NCBI RefSeq assembly: GCF_009914755.1
Contig: NC_060936.1
DNA from: the human T2T-CHM13v2.0 reference genome, Homo sapiens
Direction: 5' to 3' (one strand)
DNA: 64,000 nucleotides
The position numbers and the translations under genes were made by a program. Positions 22,492-30,521 of this stretch are shown in pieces. The notes below the pieces were generated by a model. The model was not told the origin of the DNA. It did no database searches and worked only from the letters and a program-made list of their open reading frames with translations. Numbering within the stretch: the stretch's first letter is position 1; each line of letters opens with the position of its first letter.

Positions 22492-22600
22492 GACTCTGAT
22501 GGGAGTCTTATGGTTAAACCTTGGTTGAAAGCCAGAGGGATCAGCAGGAACAGGAAAACAGAAACCTGCAGTAGGGCTCACAGAGGCTGAAGCCAGGCAG
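22492..22600 (+). pseudogene. Decayed exon of an axonemal dynein heavy chain (DNAH3/7/12-like), AAA1 Walker A/P-loop exon
   Basis: Acceptor ctttcttctttaag|G, donor CAG|gttgtt. From 22493 it reads TLMGVLWLNLG*KPEGSAGTGK, versus the family motif (R)[25 protein letters not shown] at 22526-22528 replaces Gly. A 1-nt loss after GGA AAA hides (T)ETC, and a 1-nt gain restores LTEAEARQ (family LAKA[LV]AKQ). Confidence 0.92.
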
Positions 22601-23540
22601 GTTGTTTAGGTTTAGAAAATGGAGAAAAGTCCTCTTTTTATTACTTACGCACTACAGGAGGTGAAAAGACAAACACAGGATGTGAAGCCCCTGTGTGCAC
22701 GTAATTATGAGTATGTGAGTCACTGGGGTCCACACAGTTGCCCACCAACCAGAAGGTCTGTCGAGGAAATCCAGCCGTTTGCTTGGCTGATGGGACTGAT
22801 ACTATTCTCCTGGAGCTGCTCTACCAGGGGCCAGAGGACAGGTATTTGGAAACCAAGGAGAAATTGCAGGGTGAACAACAGGCAAGCCCACACTTATGCA
22901 GAGATAGGATGTGATTTGGAAAAATTCCATTTTACACATTGTGTTGCTGAAACCAATATGCAGGGAAAACCTGAGTGAGCTCCAACCAAGTGGTTAAAAA
23001 AAAAATGCCACTTCTCATATACATACAATGTAGTTAATGGAGATTTGCAAGATAAGTACACTAGAGTGGAAAGGGGCAGGATTTATTTCCTTTGACTATG
23101 ATGTAGTGAAGCTACTCTCAGGTATATATATATTATTGAGCATGTTATTTTAAATTATAAAATAAAAGTGCCACTTGAGAGTGTAATTGAAAATCATATT
23201 GTAAAGTAAAGGAGCTTGATGGTCATAAAGGATGGATAGTTCAGCATGTTTCTCGTCTTTACATTTCACAAATAGATGGTTTTGTTCTCATGTGTAATTC
23301 CAAAATTGGAATTTTGCCCTAATAGATAAGGCAATTTCAGAAAATGTAGACCACGTACTAAATTATCCCTTTAACAATTTTATAATAGCATCAGGATTCA
23401 TTATTATTACTTGAGAGATGTTCATAATTTTTTAGAGAACGTAAAAACTTCAGATAAGTAAAACCAAAGCCAAAATCTTCTACAACCCCAATAGTCATTA
23501 AAAAATCTCAGTTTTTTGGATCTGACCTCTCAGTAGATTT

Positions 23541-23849
23541 TTTTTTTCTTGTTTTTCCTTTTTTTTTTTTTGAGACAGGGTCCTGCTCCATCACTCAGGC
23601 TGGAATGCAATGGTGTGATCCAGACTAACCGCAACCGCCACCCTGCAGGCTCAAGCATCCTCTCACCTCAGCCTCCCAAATAGTGGGAGCACAGGTGCAT
23701 GCCACCACAGCCAGCTAATTTTGGTATTTTTTATAGAGAAGGAGTTTCACCATGTTGCCCAAGCTGCTCTCAAACTCCTGAGATAAGGAGATCCACCCAC
23801 CTTGGCCTCCCAAGTGTTAGGATTGCAGACATGAGCCAGCATGCCGGCC
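23541..23849 (-). mobile_element. AluJ
   Basis: Diverged reverse Alu (gagacagggtc, ggctcaagcatcctc, ttgcccaagctgctctcaaactcctg). TSD-like gtagattt on both sides. Confidence 0.9.
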
Positions 23850-26248: not shown

Positions 26249-29200
26249 GCTGGGGAAAGGGTACACTTTAATAAGTGAATGTAGGCAAATCTACTTCACA
26301 CAGTGTTTAGTACATAGAAGATGCTCAGAAATTATTAGTCCTTTTCCTTTCTTCTCTCCTTCATGTGTGAGCAAACTTTATCATCAGGACTGGTACCAAT
26401 TCTCCAGAGAAATCATACTTTGTTATGACCTTTTATTGGAAGTCTTTCGGGAAACTCTTTAGCTCTATTCCACACAATATATACCAGCATAATGGCAGGG
26501 CCTTATGCAGATCAAGTGCTATTGACAGATACATTGACATTAGGTGGGAGAGGAGAGTGGAAGAAACTGAAGCAAAGACAGGGGGATACGGAAAAATAGA
26601 GAAATAAAAGAAAAATCCATAAGCATAGAGGATGCGTAAAATTTATCACTGAGATGCTTCCTTCAATTTGATCATAAATTTATACAAGAAGAGGATTTTC
26701 TTTGGGGAAGACTGAAATTTACAAGGGAACAAGTTTCTAGCAACTTGCAAGAAAAAAATAAAAGGTTCTCTAGTAGAACTGTTTTATGGCCTAACCTAGA
26801 TAGAGCATATGTTTACATTTGAAGGATTATTTCCAGAACTTATTTATCACTCCAATGAAATGTGAATCCCACATAAATTTTTTAGTTTTAAGTTTCGGAT
26901 GACTAATTTAAACCATGTGGCAAAATGGCAGCGTAGTGAAATTTACCATAGTGACCACATTGATCTTTGATTCCAGTGATTAACTGTGACTTTTGTTTGG
27001 TGAACTTCATTGGACTTTTTGTCACCCATTTCTTGCTCTCTGTCATGTGTTTTGAGCTTTCCTAGCTATATTGGATTCATGTTTTTCCAGCATTCCTTTT
27101 GAGGATATCTAGAAATCTAGCTTTCCATAAAAATGCAACATGGCCCATAAGGTTCAAGTACGTTCATGATTTGGAATCAGAGTGCTCCATCCACTCTAGA
27201 CTTGGTAGACACATGACCCATGCTGGTTCAAGCAGAATCTTTTTCAAGAGCTTTCCCAGAGCCGTAAGAAAAGAGGCTTTCATTTCTATGACATTATGAG
27301 ATGAAATAACAAGTCAACCACAAGAAGAGTTTTCTGACCAAGGAAAGCAGAGTAGAGAAATAGAGAAGATAAGGCAAAGTCCTATTTATATTCTTTGAGC
27401 ACCCGATCCAGGCATTCCTGAATCCACCAAGCCCTCCAACGGTTGGGTTATATGAACCAATATGGTTGATTTTCTTTTGCTTAAGCATCTTTGCACAGGC
27501 TTTCAATCATAACCAAAAGCAACCTGACACTATGACACGATTTTTGTATTCTATAATACCGAAATGCTTGTGCATTGATAAAATATTTTTCCAGAGGTAT
27601 TTAGAAATGTCTTATTGGAATTCTATCTAGATCAGCCCTATGGTCATGTTTATATCATATCTTTTTCAGAAGTGTCAATTTGACAGAACTTTAAATATTG
27701 GAGCTTTTACTCAATATAAGCTATAGCCATTTACAAGGAAAAGGAAAATACTTGGTCCATTATAGCTTCAAAATGTTGAGGAAACAGTGTGGTTTATTAT
27801 AAAGAATACACACTAGAAGCTAGTCCTGGAGTAATATCACACATCAACCACCTAAGAGTTACACAAATTTTCACCAGTTACTAGCCAGACTGCACCTCAG
27901 ACTTTGCATCAATAAATCAGGAGTGATAATGCTTCTCGCTTATGTGAAGATTAAACGGAATCATATTTATAAAATTCTATCTCATTAAGGGTAAATAATC
28001 TAGTTTTTTTCCACTTTTCTATCCCTAGGCTCTACAACAGTGCCTGGAACATATTAGCTGTTTATTAACTATTTGTGTCAAACAGAAATGTCTAGTACAA
28101 AATGAGTGTACAATACAGAGTAAGTAGTATGGTGGTGGTGATGATGATGATGATGCCATACACATGGCTGGTGAGCTTTTGTCACCTGTGGGAAACAAAG
28201 CTCATAGGAAAATGGTTTCAGCTATTCCGCTATCCAAAGTAGACTCCTGACATCACGGAGATAGACAAATACATGGCTTACTAGGATATTTCTTTATAAC
28301 CCCAGCACATGAATAAAAGCCGTAATTTATTCATTAATATTATTGAGCAATAGTGAGCATGTGCTGAGTATAATGCTAGATGCTAGGAACACCATGAGGA
28401 TCAGCAATTATAACTAACATGAATAGTAATAGCTAAGATTTCTGGAGCATTTTCTTTCTGCCAGGTATTTCTTAGAGCACTTTGTTTTTTAGCTCCTTCA
28501 TTCTCAGAAAAGTTCCATGTGGCTGGTAAAACTATTGTCATCATAATTTTACAAAGGAGGAGACTGAAGCATAGAGCATTGAGAGAACTTGTCCAAGGAC
28601 AGCAGCTGAGTGGAGCCAGATTCTTTAACCCAGCTGGTCCGGCTCCAAGACCCACAGTCTGCGACGTATTACAATATTCTCAAAGAACCACGAGAATATG
28701 AGAACCAGGTTTTAGAAGATGTGGTTTAATAGTAGATACAAGGGTGCTACTATGTGTAGAATGGTATTTTCTTTGTCCTAATGAATGAACAAGACATGGA
28801 AAAGTATCCCAGAACTCAAAATTAGATTTTCTCAGCTTAATGTCAGGGCCAGACCTAAAAACAATGTGAAGCTGTTTTCAAGATCACCTCTTCCTCTCCT
28901 AAGGCCCCAGGACCTGAATGTTTTTCAGCCCAAGCAAGGCCTTTCCAACCATCTCTGGCCTCTTTGGACTTAAAGGTCTTAGAATCTTCCTTCCTTCCTC
29001 CCTTTATCCTTATTCCCATCACAAGTTTTTTAATTAATGAATACTATTCCTTGAATAGTTTTTATCTAAACAACTAATTCACACAGGTGTGGAGGATTAT
29101 TCATGGCACCATGGTCTTTCATCAAAGGGATGAATCTCATTTCTTCCCACCTAAACTATTAATCAGCTCAACAATAACCCACAACACTCAGACCAACTAC

Positions 29201-30405
29201 CACCTACACTATTGAAGTAGTTCTCTACCTAACCTTCCAAACTGCAGCTTCTTCTCCCTTTTCCTTGGACACAGCTGAAAGGGTAAGCTTTTCTAATGCT
29301 GCTTTTGAGTGAGTCTTCTATTCCGAAATATGTGGCTGCATACTTAACAACGAAAAAAGTCCAAATTTCGTAAACGGGCATTTGACACCCTCAAAATTTG
29401 CCTCTATCGATCTTTTGGAATGCATTTCCCTCCATGAGCTTACACATGTTTTACTGTATCCTAAGCATGTCCATGTGATCCCACCTCCTCACCATTTTGT
29501 ATATTCCTCCCTATACCTGGAATCTCCTTTCCCTCCTTTCATTCAATTCATTCTCCTACATTTTTTGAGTACTTGCTGTAGGCCAGTCAACAGTCTAGGT
29601 CCTGGGAATGCAGCACTAATCTACAGGACAAAGTATCTACTTTTACAGAACTTTTATTCTAATGAGTAAAAAGATTAGATAAATAAATAAACAGGAATTT
29701 CAGAGAGCAGTAAGTGCTATGAATACAATAAAACAGGGTGATGGGGTGGAGAGTGAGTTGGGGAGCTGTCATTTCATTGAGTGTCCAGGGAAGAGATTTC
29801 TGAGTGGATAATTTTGATCTCAAACTAAAAATCAAGACAGATTCAGCCATGTAAGGATCAGAAAGTTCCAGGGAGAAAGCTGAGCAAGTACCCCTGATAT
29901 TCAAATACTATCCGCTCTCAAAGGCCTAGTTCAGATGCAACCTCAGCTTCAAACCTTCTTTTATCCTTCTAGCTTAATTCCAGCCCATAATGTTTTATTG
30001 TCCTTGCAGTGTTACCACTTTCTGTCTTGGATGTTAGCTATGTATGCACACTTTTCAACCCTGTTAGAATTTCCAGTCTTGAAGATCTATCCTTTTACCA
30101 CCTACAATGCTTAGCCCAATATTGACATAGACACTCAAATATTTCTTAAGTGAGAAAACAAAGGAGTGAATTAATGAACAAAGAAAACATGATAGAATTT
30201 GATTTCACTGGTAGCTGAATGGGGAAGACAGATATTGGGGAAAAGGAATTATGGAGTGCCTCAAAAAGTTCCTAAAAGCCTAAGGCTGATGCTGGTTCTC
30301 TTATGGAGAATCGGAATTCTTAAATTTCCAGTTGGCCCTCATTGGAGGAGAAAGTACTAAATAAAATCTTTCCAATGGTTGTTTTAAGCTTCCATCTTTC
30401 ACCAG

Positions 30406-30521
30406 GCATGTGAAGTTGCTATGATGGGGCAGACTCTGAAACCACAGGGACATTCTTCAAAGATCTAGCACAGTCTGAAGCCTGGGCGTGCTTCGATGAA
30501 TTTAATCGTACAGAGCTGGAG
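30406..30521 (+). pseudogene. Decayed exon of the same dynein heavy chain, AAA1 Walker B exon
   Basis: Acceptor ttccatctttcaccag|G, donor GAG|gtaact. 30417-30521 reads [35 protein letters not shown], versus the family consensus [35 protein letters not shown] (25/35 identical by hand). The exon is 116 nt where 120 are expected. In-frame TGA at 30411-30413. Confidence 0.95.

What the first reader, a model, noticed from the sequence alone, without database searches (positions are those of the whole stretch)
22492..30521. Hidden intron-containing pseudogene of an axonemal dynein heavy chain (two consecutive AAA1 exons)
Seen: two + strand segments, each with a polypyrimidine-AG acceptor and a GT donor, separated by a 7.8-kb intron. 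They translate to consecutive parts of the dynein AAA1 ATPase: TLMGVLWLNLG*KPEGSAGTGK(T)ETC..LTEAEARQ, then [35 protein letters not shown]. The first ends at phase 0 after Q, exactly where the family continues CVVFNCSDG. Known: [16 protein letters not shown] and [12 protein letters not shown] are signatures of single-headed inner-arm dyneins (DNAH3/7/12 group). Inference: this is an unprocessed, dead gene and not a retrocopy, and the whole window may be the interior of its very large locus. The ORF track does not show it.
Basis: partly seen in the sequence, partly recalled or inferred. Interest (0 to 1): 0.85.

Follow-up and report, generated by a model that had tools for sequence, protein, structure and literature searches.

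The report
Dead dynein gene; RMST its stump
The window holds two decayed, still intron-flanked exons of a dead inner-arm dynein motor gene spanning at least 560 kb of chromosome 12, and two "conserved regions" of the well-known non-coding RNA RMST, 260 kb upstream, prove to be earlier exons of a dynein of the same kind.

Summary
Window 22492-22600 and 30406-30521 (+) are two consecutive dynein AAA1 exons. Each has a polypyrimidine-AG acceptor and a GT donor, and a 7,805-nt intron separates them. Both are disabled by stop codons and indels. Exon B passes the Pfam AAA_6 cut-off in a whole-genome scan.

This is an unprocessed dead gene, and the window lies inside a very large locus. Collinear + strand dynein pieces lie 262 kb upstream (linker) and 279-291 kb downstream (AAA3).

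The nearest human relative is DNAH3, in the DHC7/IAD-3 group. The two share the rare intron after "AKQ". Other intron positions differ and exon nucleotide identity is only about 70%, so this is an old separate paralogue and not a copy of DNAH3.

Unexpectedly, the upstream linker exons coincide with Rfam RMST_8 and RMST_9, on the same strand and 2.8 kb before MIR135A2. The RMST_9 model also hits the coding exons of DNAH3, DNAH7 and DNAH12. RMST therefore carries former dynein exons and is probably the transcribed stump of this dead gene. That would explain its reported conservation across deuterostomes. I found no paper that says so.

Still untested: orthology to a live gene in other vertebrates, the date of death, and the 3' end of the locus.

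The parts
22492..22600 (+). Relic exon A. It covers the dynein AAA1 Walker A (P-loop) region, TLMGVLWLNLG*KPEGSAGTGK..LTEAEARQ. It is 109 nt long, with an AG acceptor before it and a GT donor after it. It is disabled by a TGA at 22526-22528 and a 1-nt deletion near 22559 that is compensated further on.
   Evidence: tblastn against the DNAH3 exon, E 4.7e-9; 70% nucleotide identity to the DNAH3 exon, which has the same length and phases.
22601..30405 (+). Former intron, 7,805 nt, at the AKQ|CVVFNC position (phase 0). The same intron in human DNAH3 is 218 nt. It holds at least one Alu-like insert at about 23.5-23.8 kb.
30406..30521 (+). Relic exon B. It covers the dynein AAA1 segment up to the Walker B region, ..[35 protein letters not shown]. 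It has an AG acceptor and a GTAACT donor. It is disabled by a 7-nt deletion near 30417 and a TGA at 30411-30413.
   Evidence: Pfam AAA_6, 35.6 bits, over cut-off; 72% nucleotide identity to the DNAH3 exon.
30570..34250 (+). L1 retrotransposon insert directly downstream of exon B, in the next former intron. It is one of several L1 and Alu inserts that inflate the locus; others lie at about 5.4-9.4 kb and 55.6-59.1 kb.
   Evidence: L1 ORF2-like ORF at 30671-31327; high-identity L1 matches.
1..64000 (+). The whole window is the interior of the dead gene. No further exon could be detected here with DNAH3 exons or with long environmental dynein fragments. Parts outside the window, in chr12 T2T coordinates, + strand: linker exon = RMST_8 at 97,533,741-97,533,882; linker exon = RMST_9 at about 97,534,025-97,534,234; MIR135A2 at 97,537,003-97,537,087; AAA3 pieces at 98,083,417-98,083,587 and 98,095,137-98,095,343.

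Best explanation
The window is the middle of a unitary-type (unprocessed, intron-containing) pseudogene of an axonemal inner-arm dynein heavy chain. The gene belongs to the DHC7/IAD-3 group and its nearest living human relative is DNAH3.

The gene once ran 5'->3' on the + strand across at least 560 kb of 12q23.1. It lost its coding function. Its motor-domain exons, including the two AAA1 exons in the window, have since decayed as neutral DNA, while L1 and Alu insertions stretched the introns.

The 5' part did not fall silent. At least two former linker exons, still joined at the old splice junction, are exons of the lncRNA RMST (Rfam RMST_8 and RMST_9), which also hosts miR-135a-2.

Shown: the homology, the disabling lesions, the intron positions, the collinearity, and the identity of RMST_8/9 with dynein exons.

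Inferred: that all pieces come from one ancestral gene; that this gene was a fourth DHC7 paralogue and not a copy of DNAH3; and that it died roughly 100-200 Myr ago in the mammalian stem.

The two exons in the window have no function of their own that I can see.
For: 1. Exons A and B match dynein AAA1 significantly and keep their splice sites.

2. Exon A's boundaries and 109-nt length equal those of human DNAH3. Of the twelve human dynein genes inspected, only DNAH3 has an intron after AKQ.

3. Whole-genome Pfam scans find further + strand pieces in the right order:
- DHC_N2 positions 330-388 at chr12:97,534,049 (37.3 bits)
- AAA_7 positions 32-88 at 98,083,417 (22.4 bits)
- AAA_7 positions 72-140 at 98,095,137 (36.7 bits)

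4. PDB phmmer puts DNAH3 first for exon B (37.7 bits), both AAA3 pieces (28.2 and 33.5 bits) and RMST_8 (17.9 bits, DNAH3 residues 1138-1169). RMST_9 matches DNAH7 best (about 27 bits; DNAH3 residues 1189-1229 score 20.8).

5. Lesions: two TGAs, a frameshift and a 7-nt deletion in the window; stops and frameshifts elsewhere; AAA3 Walker A GPTGTGKS now reads APIGPQEA.

6. It is not a copy of DNAH3:
- Exon nucleotide identity is about 70%.
- The DNAH3 introns at ANAK|G and VVFV|DD are absent.
- The exon B donor lies 6 nt later (NRIELE|gt against NRIE|gt).
- At least 18 environmental DNAH3-like gene fragments show both of exon B's boundaries; 19 more show the ELE donor but are cut off upstream. 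Where the fragment runs on upstream, some carry TETC, as the relic does.

7. Rfam cmscan places RMST_9 (206 bits) and RMST_8 (143 bits) exactly on the two linker exons, with mir-135 2.8 kb downstream. The RMST_9 model hits the coding strand of DNAH3 (E 4e-6), DNAH7 (7e-6) and DNAH12 (0.004). hmmscan maps RMST_8 to DHC_N2 positions 276-308 and RMST_9 to 332-371.

8. Four unlabelled ORF fragments (P0001, P0002, P0072, P0141) are the same relic exon from other genomes, presumably other mammals. They share the intron start, and three of them share the human substitutions at invariant sites.

9. Kollmar 2016 lists four DHC7 genes in sea urchin but three in human (PMC5100056).
Against: - Only seven short pieces, about 300 codons of some 4,100, are detectable.
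- No hit on this stretch of chr12 came from AAA_8, AAA_9, Dynein_heavy, Dynein_AAA_lid or AAA_lid_11. The 3' half is therefore unproven.
- The gaps between pieces are very large (262 and 279 kb), so a single ancestral gene is an inference from strand, order and class.
- RMST_9 scores better with DNAH7 than with DNAH3.
- The two AAA3 pieces overlap by about 16 profile positions, which a simple exon pair would not do.
- RMST_6 and RMST_10 show no dynein similarity, so most of RMST is not demonstrably dynein-derived.
- No genome of another vertebrate could be searched, so a live orthologue, which the term 'unitary' requires, is not shown.
- Zebrafish is reported with only three DHC7 genes (PMC6008050).
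Confidence: 0.8

Rival explanations
1. It is an old duplicated pseudogene of DNAH3. A genomic copy of DNAH3, introns included, landed on chr12 and died soon afterwards without ever being an independent functional gene.
For: DNAH3 is the best match for four of the five pieces tested against solved structures, and the only human dynein inspected that shares the AKQ| intron and the 109-nt exon.
Against: - Exon nucleotide identity is about 70%.
- Three intron positions differ from human DNAH3.
- The linker exon is closer to DNAH7.
- The locus is about 8.6 times longer than the same interval of DNAH3.
- Relic exon B retains about 70% of the inferred ancestral residues. That implies long purifying selection after the split from DNAH3, meaning it was once a working gene.
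- The exon-boundary type is common in live environmental DNAH3-like genes.
Confidence: 0.1
2. The pieces belong to two or more separate dead dynein genes or fragments. For example, the RMST linker exons would come from one gene and the AAA1/AAA3 pieces from another, so the window would not be part of the RMST-linked gene.
For: The gaps between pieces are 262 kb and 279 kb. The linker exon prefers DNAH7 while the motor pieces prefer DNAH3. The two AAA3 pieces partly overlap in profile coordinates. Other isolated dynein relics exist in this genome.
Against: All pieces are on the + strand, in N-to-C order, and of DHC7 type. RMST_8 itself matches DNAH3 best. No out-of-order DHC7 piece was found on this stretch of chr12 in ten Pfam genome scans.
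Confidence: 0.08
3. It is a processed retrocopy or a chance motif match.
For: None beyond the short length of the segments.
Against: The two segments are split exactly at a known dynein intron position, have splice signals, and are 7.8 kb apart. Genome-wide E-values are 1e-5 to 1e-6 per piece, and there are five further collinear pieces.
Confidence: 0.01
4. The exons are still part of a functional coding gene that the annotation has missed.
For: Splice sites look usable, and RefSeq shows nothing here.
Against: There are in-frame stops and frameshifts in every piece. The AAA1 P-loop region carries a TGA and the AAA3 Walker A is destroyed. Neighbouring exons are undetectable.
Confidence: 0.01

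Closest known systems
Human DNAH3 (inner-arm dynein heavy chain, DHC7/IAD-3 group; chr16p12)
   Same: It is the best protein match for exon B, both AAA3 pieces and RMST_8. It has the identical start, length (109 nt) and phase-0 end for the P-loop exon, and shares the intron after AKQ. It also shares the signatures TLMGxLxLNLGG and DYKAMGKFFKGLAQxGAW; the latter is seen in the least-decayed relic orthologue, P0072.
   Different: Exon nucleotide identity is only about 70%. The relic lacks the DNAH3 introns at ANAK|G and VVFV|DD, and its exon B donor is 6 nt later. It has TETC where DNAH3 has TETT. The locus is about 8.6 times larger over the comparable interval. The relic is dead.
lncRNAs that are fossils of lost protein-coding genes (XIST from Lnx3; the set of Hezroni et al. 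2017, PMC5577775)
   Same: A spliced lncRNA (RMST) whose exons are recognisable, same-strand remains of coding exons and reuse an old splice junction.
   Different: RMST is not in Hezroni's list, text or supplement. Here the fossil gene is very large, and only two of the four RMST conserved regions I tested are demonstrably coding-derived. Synteny to a live orthologue was not testable.
Classic unitary pseudogene relics in mammals (vitellogenin genes, GULOP; from my own knowledge)
   Same: Scattered, decayed exons that keep ancestral intron positions at a syntenic site, with no intact copy in the genome.
   Different: The ancestral functional orthologue has not yet been identified. Part of the locus has been taken over by a lncRNA and a microRNA host.
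Rfam families RMST_8 (RF01969) and RMST_9 (RF01970)
   Same: The human linker exons are full-length, high-scoring members (143 and 206 bits).
   Different: These families are filed as lncRNA conserved regions. The sequences are former dynein coding exons, and the models also match live dynein coding exons.

Membership tests
Dynein heavy chain | AAA1 P-loop motif GPAGTGKT(E)T | tested here: met
   Exon A reads PEGSAGTGK, then TETC after a 1-nt deletion. tblastn against the DNAH3 exon gives E 4.7e-9.
Dynein heavy chain | AAA1 Walker B region ...[10 protein letters not shown]..., scoring over the Pfam AAA_6 cut-off | tested here: met
   35.6 bits in the genome scan and 34.4 bits in hmmscan, against a cut-off of 25.2.
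Dynein heavy chain | Linker (Pfam DHC_N2) upstream of AAA1, on the same strand | tested here: met
   chr12:97,534,049-97,534,234 scores 37.3 bits against a cut-off of 31.9. The preceding exon maps to DHC_N2 positions 276-308, E 0.005.
Dynein heavy chain | AAA3 module (Pfam AAA_7) downstream of AAA1, on the same strand | tested here: met
   36.7 bits (cut-off 25.8) at 98,095,137 and 22.4 bits at 98,083,417. DNAH3 is the top PDB match for both.
Dynein heavy chain | AAA4-AAA6, stalk/microtubule-binding domain and C-terminal domain | tested here: inconclusive
   No hit on chr12 97-99 Mb for AAA_8, AAA_9, Dynein_heavy, Dynein_AAA_lid or AAA_lid_11. The MT, AAA_lid_1 and Dynein_C families were not scanned. 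These parts are either decayed beyond detection or absent.
DHC7 / IAD-3 group (DNAH3, DNAH7, DNAH12) | Closest relatives are DHC7 members and not DHC8 (DNAH1), DHC9 (DNAH6/14), two-headed inner-arm or outer-arm dyneins | tested here: met
   The top PDB chains for all five pieces tested are DNAH3 or DNAH7. No full-length phylogeny was possible.
Unitary (unprocessed) pseudogene | Disabling mutations in formerly coding exons | tested here: met
   TGA at 22526-22528, a frameshift near 22559, a 7-nt deletion and a TGA in exon B. There are also stops in the RMST_9 and AAA3 pieces, and the AAA3 Walker A is lost.
Unitary (unprocessed) pseudogene | Ancestral introns retained | tested here: met
   Introns at (R)|TLMG, AKQ|C, ELE| and FPR|FF correspond to positions seen in DNAH3, DNAH7, DNAH12 or in environmental dynein genes.
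Unitary (unprocessed) pseudogene | A functional orthologue at the syntenic site in other species, and no parent copy that explains it | not testable with these tools
   No vertebrate genome other than human was available. There are only indirect hints: Kollmar 2016, and RMST_6/7 reported in coelacanth (PMC8704543).
Processed pseudogene / retrocopy | Contiguous cDNA-like copy without introns | tested here: not met
   Consecutive coding segments are 7.8 kb to 279 kb apart and are split at known intron positions.
lncRNA derived from a dead protein-coding gene | lncRNA exons homologous to coding exons, on the same strand | tested here: met
   RMST_8 and RMST_9 coincide with the dynein linker exons. 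Their translations match DHC_N2 and DNAH3/7. The RMST_9 model hits the DNAH3, DNAH7 and DNAH12 coding exons.
lncRNA derived from a dead protein-coding gene | The whole transcript, including the promoter, descends from the dead gene | tested here: inconclusive
   RMST_6 and RMST_10 show no dynein similarity. RMST_1-5 and RMST_7 were not examined; the tool failed four times on RF01968.

The most novel reading that the evidence does not exclude
RMST is a much-studied neurogenesis lncRNA that binds SOX2. [quoted passage not shown] On this reading it is the still-transcribed 5' stump of a dead inner-arm dynein gene more than 0.5 Mb long. That gene would be a fourth DHC7 paralogue that mammals lost, and the window would hold its decaying motor exons. 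The 'deep conservation' of RMST_8/9 would then be coding-exon ancestry, not RNA function. RMST expression in floor plate and dorsal midline might be inherited from a ciliary gene's promoter, and the 12q23.1 gene desert would be the corpse of this gene.
Probability: 0.5. Interest if true: 0.8.

Novelty: new member of a known kind. Interest (0 to 1): 0.66.

Why it matters
1. It documents the loss of an axonemal inner-arm dynein heavy chain on the human lineage. It also gives the physical remains of that gene, which can be used to date the loss and to find the live orthologue in other vertebrates.

2. It offers a simple explanation for a puzzle in the lncRNA literature. RMST_8 and RMST_9 are 'found' in tunicates, amphioxus and all deuterostomes, with seven RMST_9 copies in one tunicate (PMC5006418, PMC8704543), because they are dynein coding exons. 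Genome annotations that use RF01969 and RF01970 will label dynein exons as lncRNA.

3. It adds a prominent, functionally studied lncRNA and microRNA host to the small set of lncRNAs born from dead protein-coding genes.

4. It accounts for at least 560 kb of a gene desert with no RefSeq annotation.

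Tried and rejected
- **Representative-protein search.** The search with exon B returned only short unlabelled ORF fragments and no full-length dynein. A full-length protein-to-genome alignment was therefore impossible.
- **Further exons in the window.** tblastn with all ORFs of an 18-kb DNAH3 stretch was swamped by L1 and Alu. 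Restricting the search to the eight true DNAH3 AAA1-region exons, and then to 26 long environmental fragments, found nothing beyond exons A and B.
- **Genome scans.** Scans with PF03028, PF17852, PF12780, PF12781 and PF18198 found no further piece of this relic. PF08385 does not model single-headed dynein tails at all.
- **Fetching sequence.** I could not fetch the 1.2-Mb relic region either.
- **RMST_7.** Its coordinates could not be obtained; the genome search failed four times on RF01968.
- **RMST_6 and RMST_10.** I translated both and tested them against Pfam and the PDB. Neither shows dynein similarity.
- **Species of the relic orthologues.** The search for homologous proteins with P0001 gave two more relic orthologues but no species or names.
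- **Zebrafish dnah7l.** I considered it as the live orthologue and rejected it, because it is the DNAH6 orthologue (PMC6008050).
- **2R ohnologue of DNAH3.** I considered this idea. From memory, the neighbours of 16p12 and 12q23 do not belong to the same paralogy group, so I do not favour it. It was not tested.
- **Literature.** Searches for a human dynein pseudogene, for 'lost in mammals', and for RMST together with dynein found no prior statement of this link.

Full report
**1. The observation**

Reading the window confirms both segments.

- Exon A is window 22492-22600. It is preceded by ctttcttctttaag and followed by gttgtt. In frame 22493 it reads TLMGVLWLNLG*KPEGSAGTGKQKPAVGLTEAEARQ.
- TETC appears in frame 22492, which implies a 1-nt deletion straight after GTGK. 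A later indel restores the frame, so the exon is still 109 nt.
- Exon B is window 30406-30521. It is preceded by ccatctttcaccag and followed by gtaact. In frame 30408 it reads [37 protein letters not shown].
- The spacer between them is 7,805 nt.

The match is well beyond chance:

- A six-frame scan of the whole T2T genome with Pfam AAA_6 lists exon B at 35.6 bits, E 7.6e-6, above the curated cut-off. hmmscan gives E 1.5e-8.
- tblastn with the two DNAH3 exons gives E 2.4e-12 and 4.7e-9 against the window.

**2. Comparison with the human paralogues**

I cut the AAA1 region out of twelve human dynein genes.

- Only DNAH3 has an exon G-ACA-CTG-ATG...AAG-CAG|gt ([36 protein letters not shown]). 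It is 109 nt, with the same start, length and phases as exon A.
- In DNAH3 a 218-nt intron follows, then an exon beginning CVVFNCSDG.
- DNAH7, DNAH12, DNAH1, DNAH6 and the other genes inspected have no intron after this Q.
- Relic and DNAH3 exons are 70% and 72% identical in nucleotides.
- Against DNAH3, exon A carries a TGA at 22526-22528 (LGG becomes LG*) and the frameshift. Exon B carries a 7-nt deletion that removes 'FN' of CVVFNC, a TGA at 30411-30413, three extra bases at its 5' end, and a donor 6 nt further 3' (NRTELE|gt against NRIE|gt).

So the segments are dead exons kept at ancestral intron positions. This is not a retrocopy.

**3. Extent of the locus**

Genome-wide Pfam scans found more + strand pieces on chr12 outside the window, in N-to-C order:

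- DHC_N2 positions 330-388 at 97,534,049-97,534,234 (37.3 bits, one TGA).
- AAA_7 positions 32-88 at 98,083,417-98,083,587 (22.4 bits).
- AAA_7 positions 72-140 at 98,095,137-98,095,343 (36.7 bits, two TAA).

Their translations are plainly dynein. Examples are ...HLKPCFEGSAKLTFNHEKEITH...ASAKGLVEEWL...FFVAPIGPQEAAPTNGFL...INFTVQTSAKQTQDI... (Walker A destroyed) and ...LGKGDSVFADDPNMSAKEKYGVQSPIE....

The interval from linker to AAA3 is 561 kb here and about 65 kb in DNAH3. In chromosome coordinates, exons A and B are chr12:97,796,492-97,796,600 and 97,804,406-97,804,521. They lie 262 kb after the linker exon and 279 kb before the first AAA3 piece.

Scans with AAA_8, AAA_9, Dynein_heavy, Dynein_AAA_lid and AAA_lid_11 found nothing more here. 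The 3' end is therefore open.

Within the window no further exon is detectable. Much of the window is L1 and Alu.

**4. Which dynein**

phmmer against all PDB chains gave these best matches:

| Piece | Best chain | Bits | Other chains (bits) |
|---|---|---|---|
| Exon B | DNAH3 | 37.7 | DNAH12 35.9; DNAH7 29.8 |
| AAA3 piece 1 | DNAH3 | 28.2 | DNAH7 20.3 |
| AAA3 piece 2 | DNAH3 | 33.5 | DNAH7 26.6; DNAH1 26.2; DNAH12 22.6 |
| Linker exon 1 (RMST_8) | DNAH3, residues 1138-1169 | 17.9 | |
| Linker exon 2 (RMST_9) | DNAH7 | about 27 | DNAH3, residues 1189-1229, 20.8 |

The relic is a DHC7/IAD-3 dynein nearest to DNAH3. It is not a copy of the present DNAH3 gene:

- It lacks the DNAH3 introns at ANAK|G and VVFV|DD.
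- It appears to have an intron near KLD(K)R|RKG, where DNAH1 has one.
- Its exon B donor differs by 6 nt.

The HMMER search of 1.8 billion representative proteins returned only short unlabelled ORF calls.

- Four of them (P0001, P0002, P0072, P0141) are the same relic exon from other genomes, presumably other mammals. They read through the same intron start (EV[IT]VV.VS).
- Three of these share the human changes at otherwise invariant sites (DGLDY to DGADS or DGAES; KGLAQSG to KDLAQSE).
- P0072 is much less decayed and shows the ancestral DYKA.GKFFKGLAQSG.
- At least 18 live-gene fragments of DNAH3-like type show both of exon B's boundaries (cag|CVVFNC...NRIELE|gt), and 19 more show the ELE donor but are cut off upstream. 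Where a fragment runs on upstream, some carry TETC, as the relic does.
- A smaller set ends NRIE|gt, like human DNAH3.

Kollmar (2016, PMC5100056) reports four metazoan DHC7 lineages. Sea urchin has four genes and human has three. I infer that the relic is the human remnant of the missing lineage. I could not test this.

**5. The link to RMST**

- A genome scan with Rfam mir-135 places MIR135A2 at chr12:97,537,003-97,537,087 (+), 2.8 kb after the linker exon.
- cmscan of the 2.5 kb around that exon gives RMST_9 (RF01970, 206 bits) at exactly the exon's coordinates, and RMST_8 (RF01969, 143 bits) about 160 nt upstream.
- RMST_8 translates to ...SQPQMLDKSTEAESLWDDIQKAWSDYLQEKSLPILSK|gtaaac.
- This matches DNAH3 residues 1138-1169 (DQPRMAEKLQEANFLLEDIQKGLNDYLEKKRL) and DHC_N2 positions 276-308. 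It is the exon immediately before the RMST_9 exon, split at the FPR|FFFLSNDE junction that DNAH3 and DNAH12 also use.
- Conversely, the RMST_9 covariance model hits the coding strand of the live DNAH3, DNAH7 and DNAH12 exons (51, 49.8 and 35.8 bits). RMST_8 hits the DNAH7 exon more weakly (30.3 bits, E 0.05).
- RMST_10 lies 270 nt after mir-135a-2. RMST_6 lies 30 kb upstream. Neither shows dynein similarity.

At least two exons of the lncRNA RMST are therefore former dynein linker exons, on the same strand and with the old splice junction.

**6. What the literature says**

- Two tunicate genome papers found RMST_9 (seven copies) and RMST_8 in Didemnum and 'in all deuterostomes'. They concluded that RMST is among the best-conserved lncRNAs (PMC5006418, PMC8704543). 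Neither paper links these hits to dynein.
- Chodroff et al. (PMC2926783) cloned Rmst from chicken and opossum and noted frog-to-human conservation of exons 1, 4 and 11. They do not mention dynein either.
- Hezroni et al.'s catalogue of lncRNAs that are fossils of coding genes does not list RMST in its text or supplement.
- RefSeq annotates nothing in the window.

Within what I could search, the dead dynein gene and its link to RMST are unreported. I could not consult GENCODE pseudogene tracks.

**7. Mechanism and age (inference)**

The gene lost function. The motor exons then drifted.

- Relative to the inferred ancestral peptide, exon B has changed at 10 of 35 residues, and exon A and AAA3 piece 2 at about 33-39%.
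- That corresponds to roughly 0.15-0.2 substitutions per site.
- This is far too little for a loss before tetrapods. It fits a loss of the order of 100-200 Myr ago.
- Substitutions shared with three relic orthologues put the loss before those lineages split.
- Introns grew through L1 and Alu insertion.
- The 5' part stayed transcribed and spliced as RMST, carrying the intronic microRNAs.

The window's two exons have no evident present function.

**8. Caveats**

- Only about 300 of some 4,100 codons are detectable, and the gaps are huge. One ancestral gene is inferred from strand, order and class.
- The two AAA3 pieces overlap by about 16 profile positions. That may be chance extension or an old local duplication.
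- The species of the environmental fragments are unknown.
- No non-human vertebrate genome could be searched.
- My remarks on hg38 coordinates, neighbouring genes and paralogy groups are from memory.

**9. Verdict**

The finding is a new member of known kinds (unitary pseudogene; lncRNA born from a dead gene). It also corrects the reading of two Rfam families and of RMST conservation.

Noticed in passing
G000 chr2:173,895,817-174,368,004, minus strand (L013, L030): A second giant dynein relic. AAA_6 pieces lie at 174,198,047-174,198,160 and 174,192,249-174,192,446 (ALSRTVRDFNIHQIMTNDIPMFLDFLWDLF..., which looks like an outer-arm beta type). A Dynein_heavy piece lies at 173,895,817-173,895,978, and a DHC_N1 piece at 174,367,849-174,368,004. 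All are collinear on the minus strand over about 472 kb. From memory this is the CDCA7 side of 2q31, and DNAH11 sits beside CDCA7L on 7p15, so it may be the lost ohnologue. Zebrafish dnah9l has no human counterpart (PMC6008050).
   Followed up: partly
G000 chr12:105,475,232-105,475,363 (+) (L033:533-664): An isolated exon of outer-arm beta type that looks intact: ccacag|[40 protein letters not shown]|gtaaga. It has no stop. It scores 49.4 bits with AAA_lid_11, and DNAH17 and DNAH9 are the top PDB matches (56.7 and 54.9 bits). It is not part of the DHC7 relic, which lies 7.4 Mb away.
   Followed up: partly
L020:881-1049, L023:705-898, L025:600-795 (coding exons of DNAH3, DNAH7, DNAH12): The Rfam lncRNA model RMST_9 matches live dynein coding exons with E values from 4e-6 to 4e-3. 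Hits of RF01970 or RF01969 in non-mammalian genomes are therefore most likely dynein exons and not lncRNA.
   Followed up: yes
G000 chr12:98,083,417-98,083,587 and 98,095,137-98,095,343: The two AAA3 pieces overlap by about 16 Pfam positions: ...TSAKQTQDISLTELER against ...KLTQRELMV*FHKRKERV.... This is either chance extension of the second alignment or an old local duplication inside the dead gene. The nucleotide similarity of the overlapping parts is low.
   Followed up: partly
G000 chr3:52,327,120-52,327,205 (-) and chr1:204,712,652-204,712,738: MIR135A1 lies about 60 kb from DNAH1 on chr3, while MIR135A2 lies inside the chr12 dynein relic. This mir-135/dynein neighbourhood on two chromosomes may reflect ancient paralogy. 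DNAH12 is also on 3p.
   Followed up: no
G000 chr16:20,894,978-20,895,643 (DNAH3): DNAH3 has an 817-codon open frame that covers the whole AAA_9 domain in one exon. The other dynein genes split AAA_9 into three to five exons. This suggests large-scale intron loss in that part of DNAH3.
   Followed up: no
G000 chr4:96,113,613-96,113,783 (+); chr13:109,103,797-109,103,883 (+): Weak extra dynein-domain hits outside known genes: AAA_lid_11 at 27 bits with six stops, and AAA_6 at 15.8 bits. They may be further relics or noise.
   Followed up: no
window 30,570-34,250; also about 5,400-9,400 and 55,600-59,100: L1 elements. The one directly after exon B is young-looking, with up to 92-98% amino-acid identity to an L1 in the DNAH3 locus. 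I only noted what they are.
   Followed up: no
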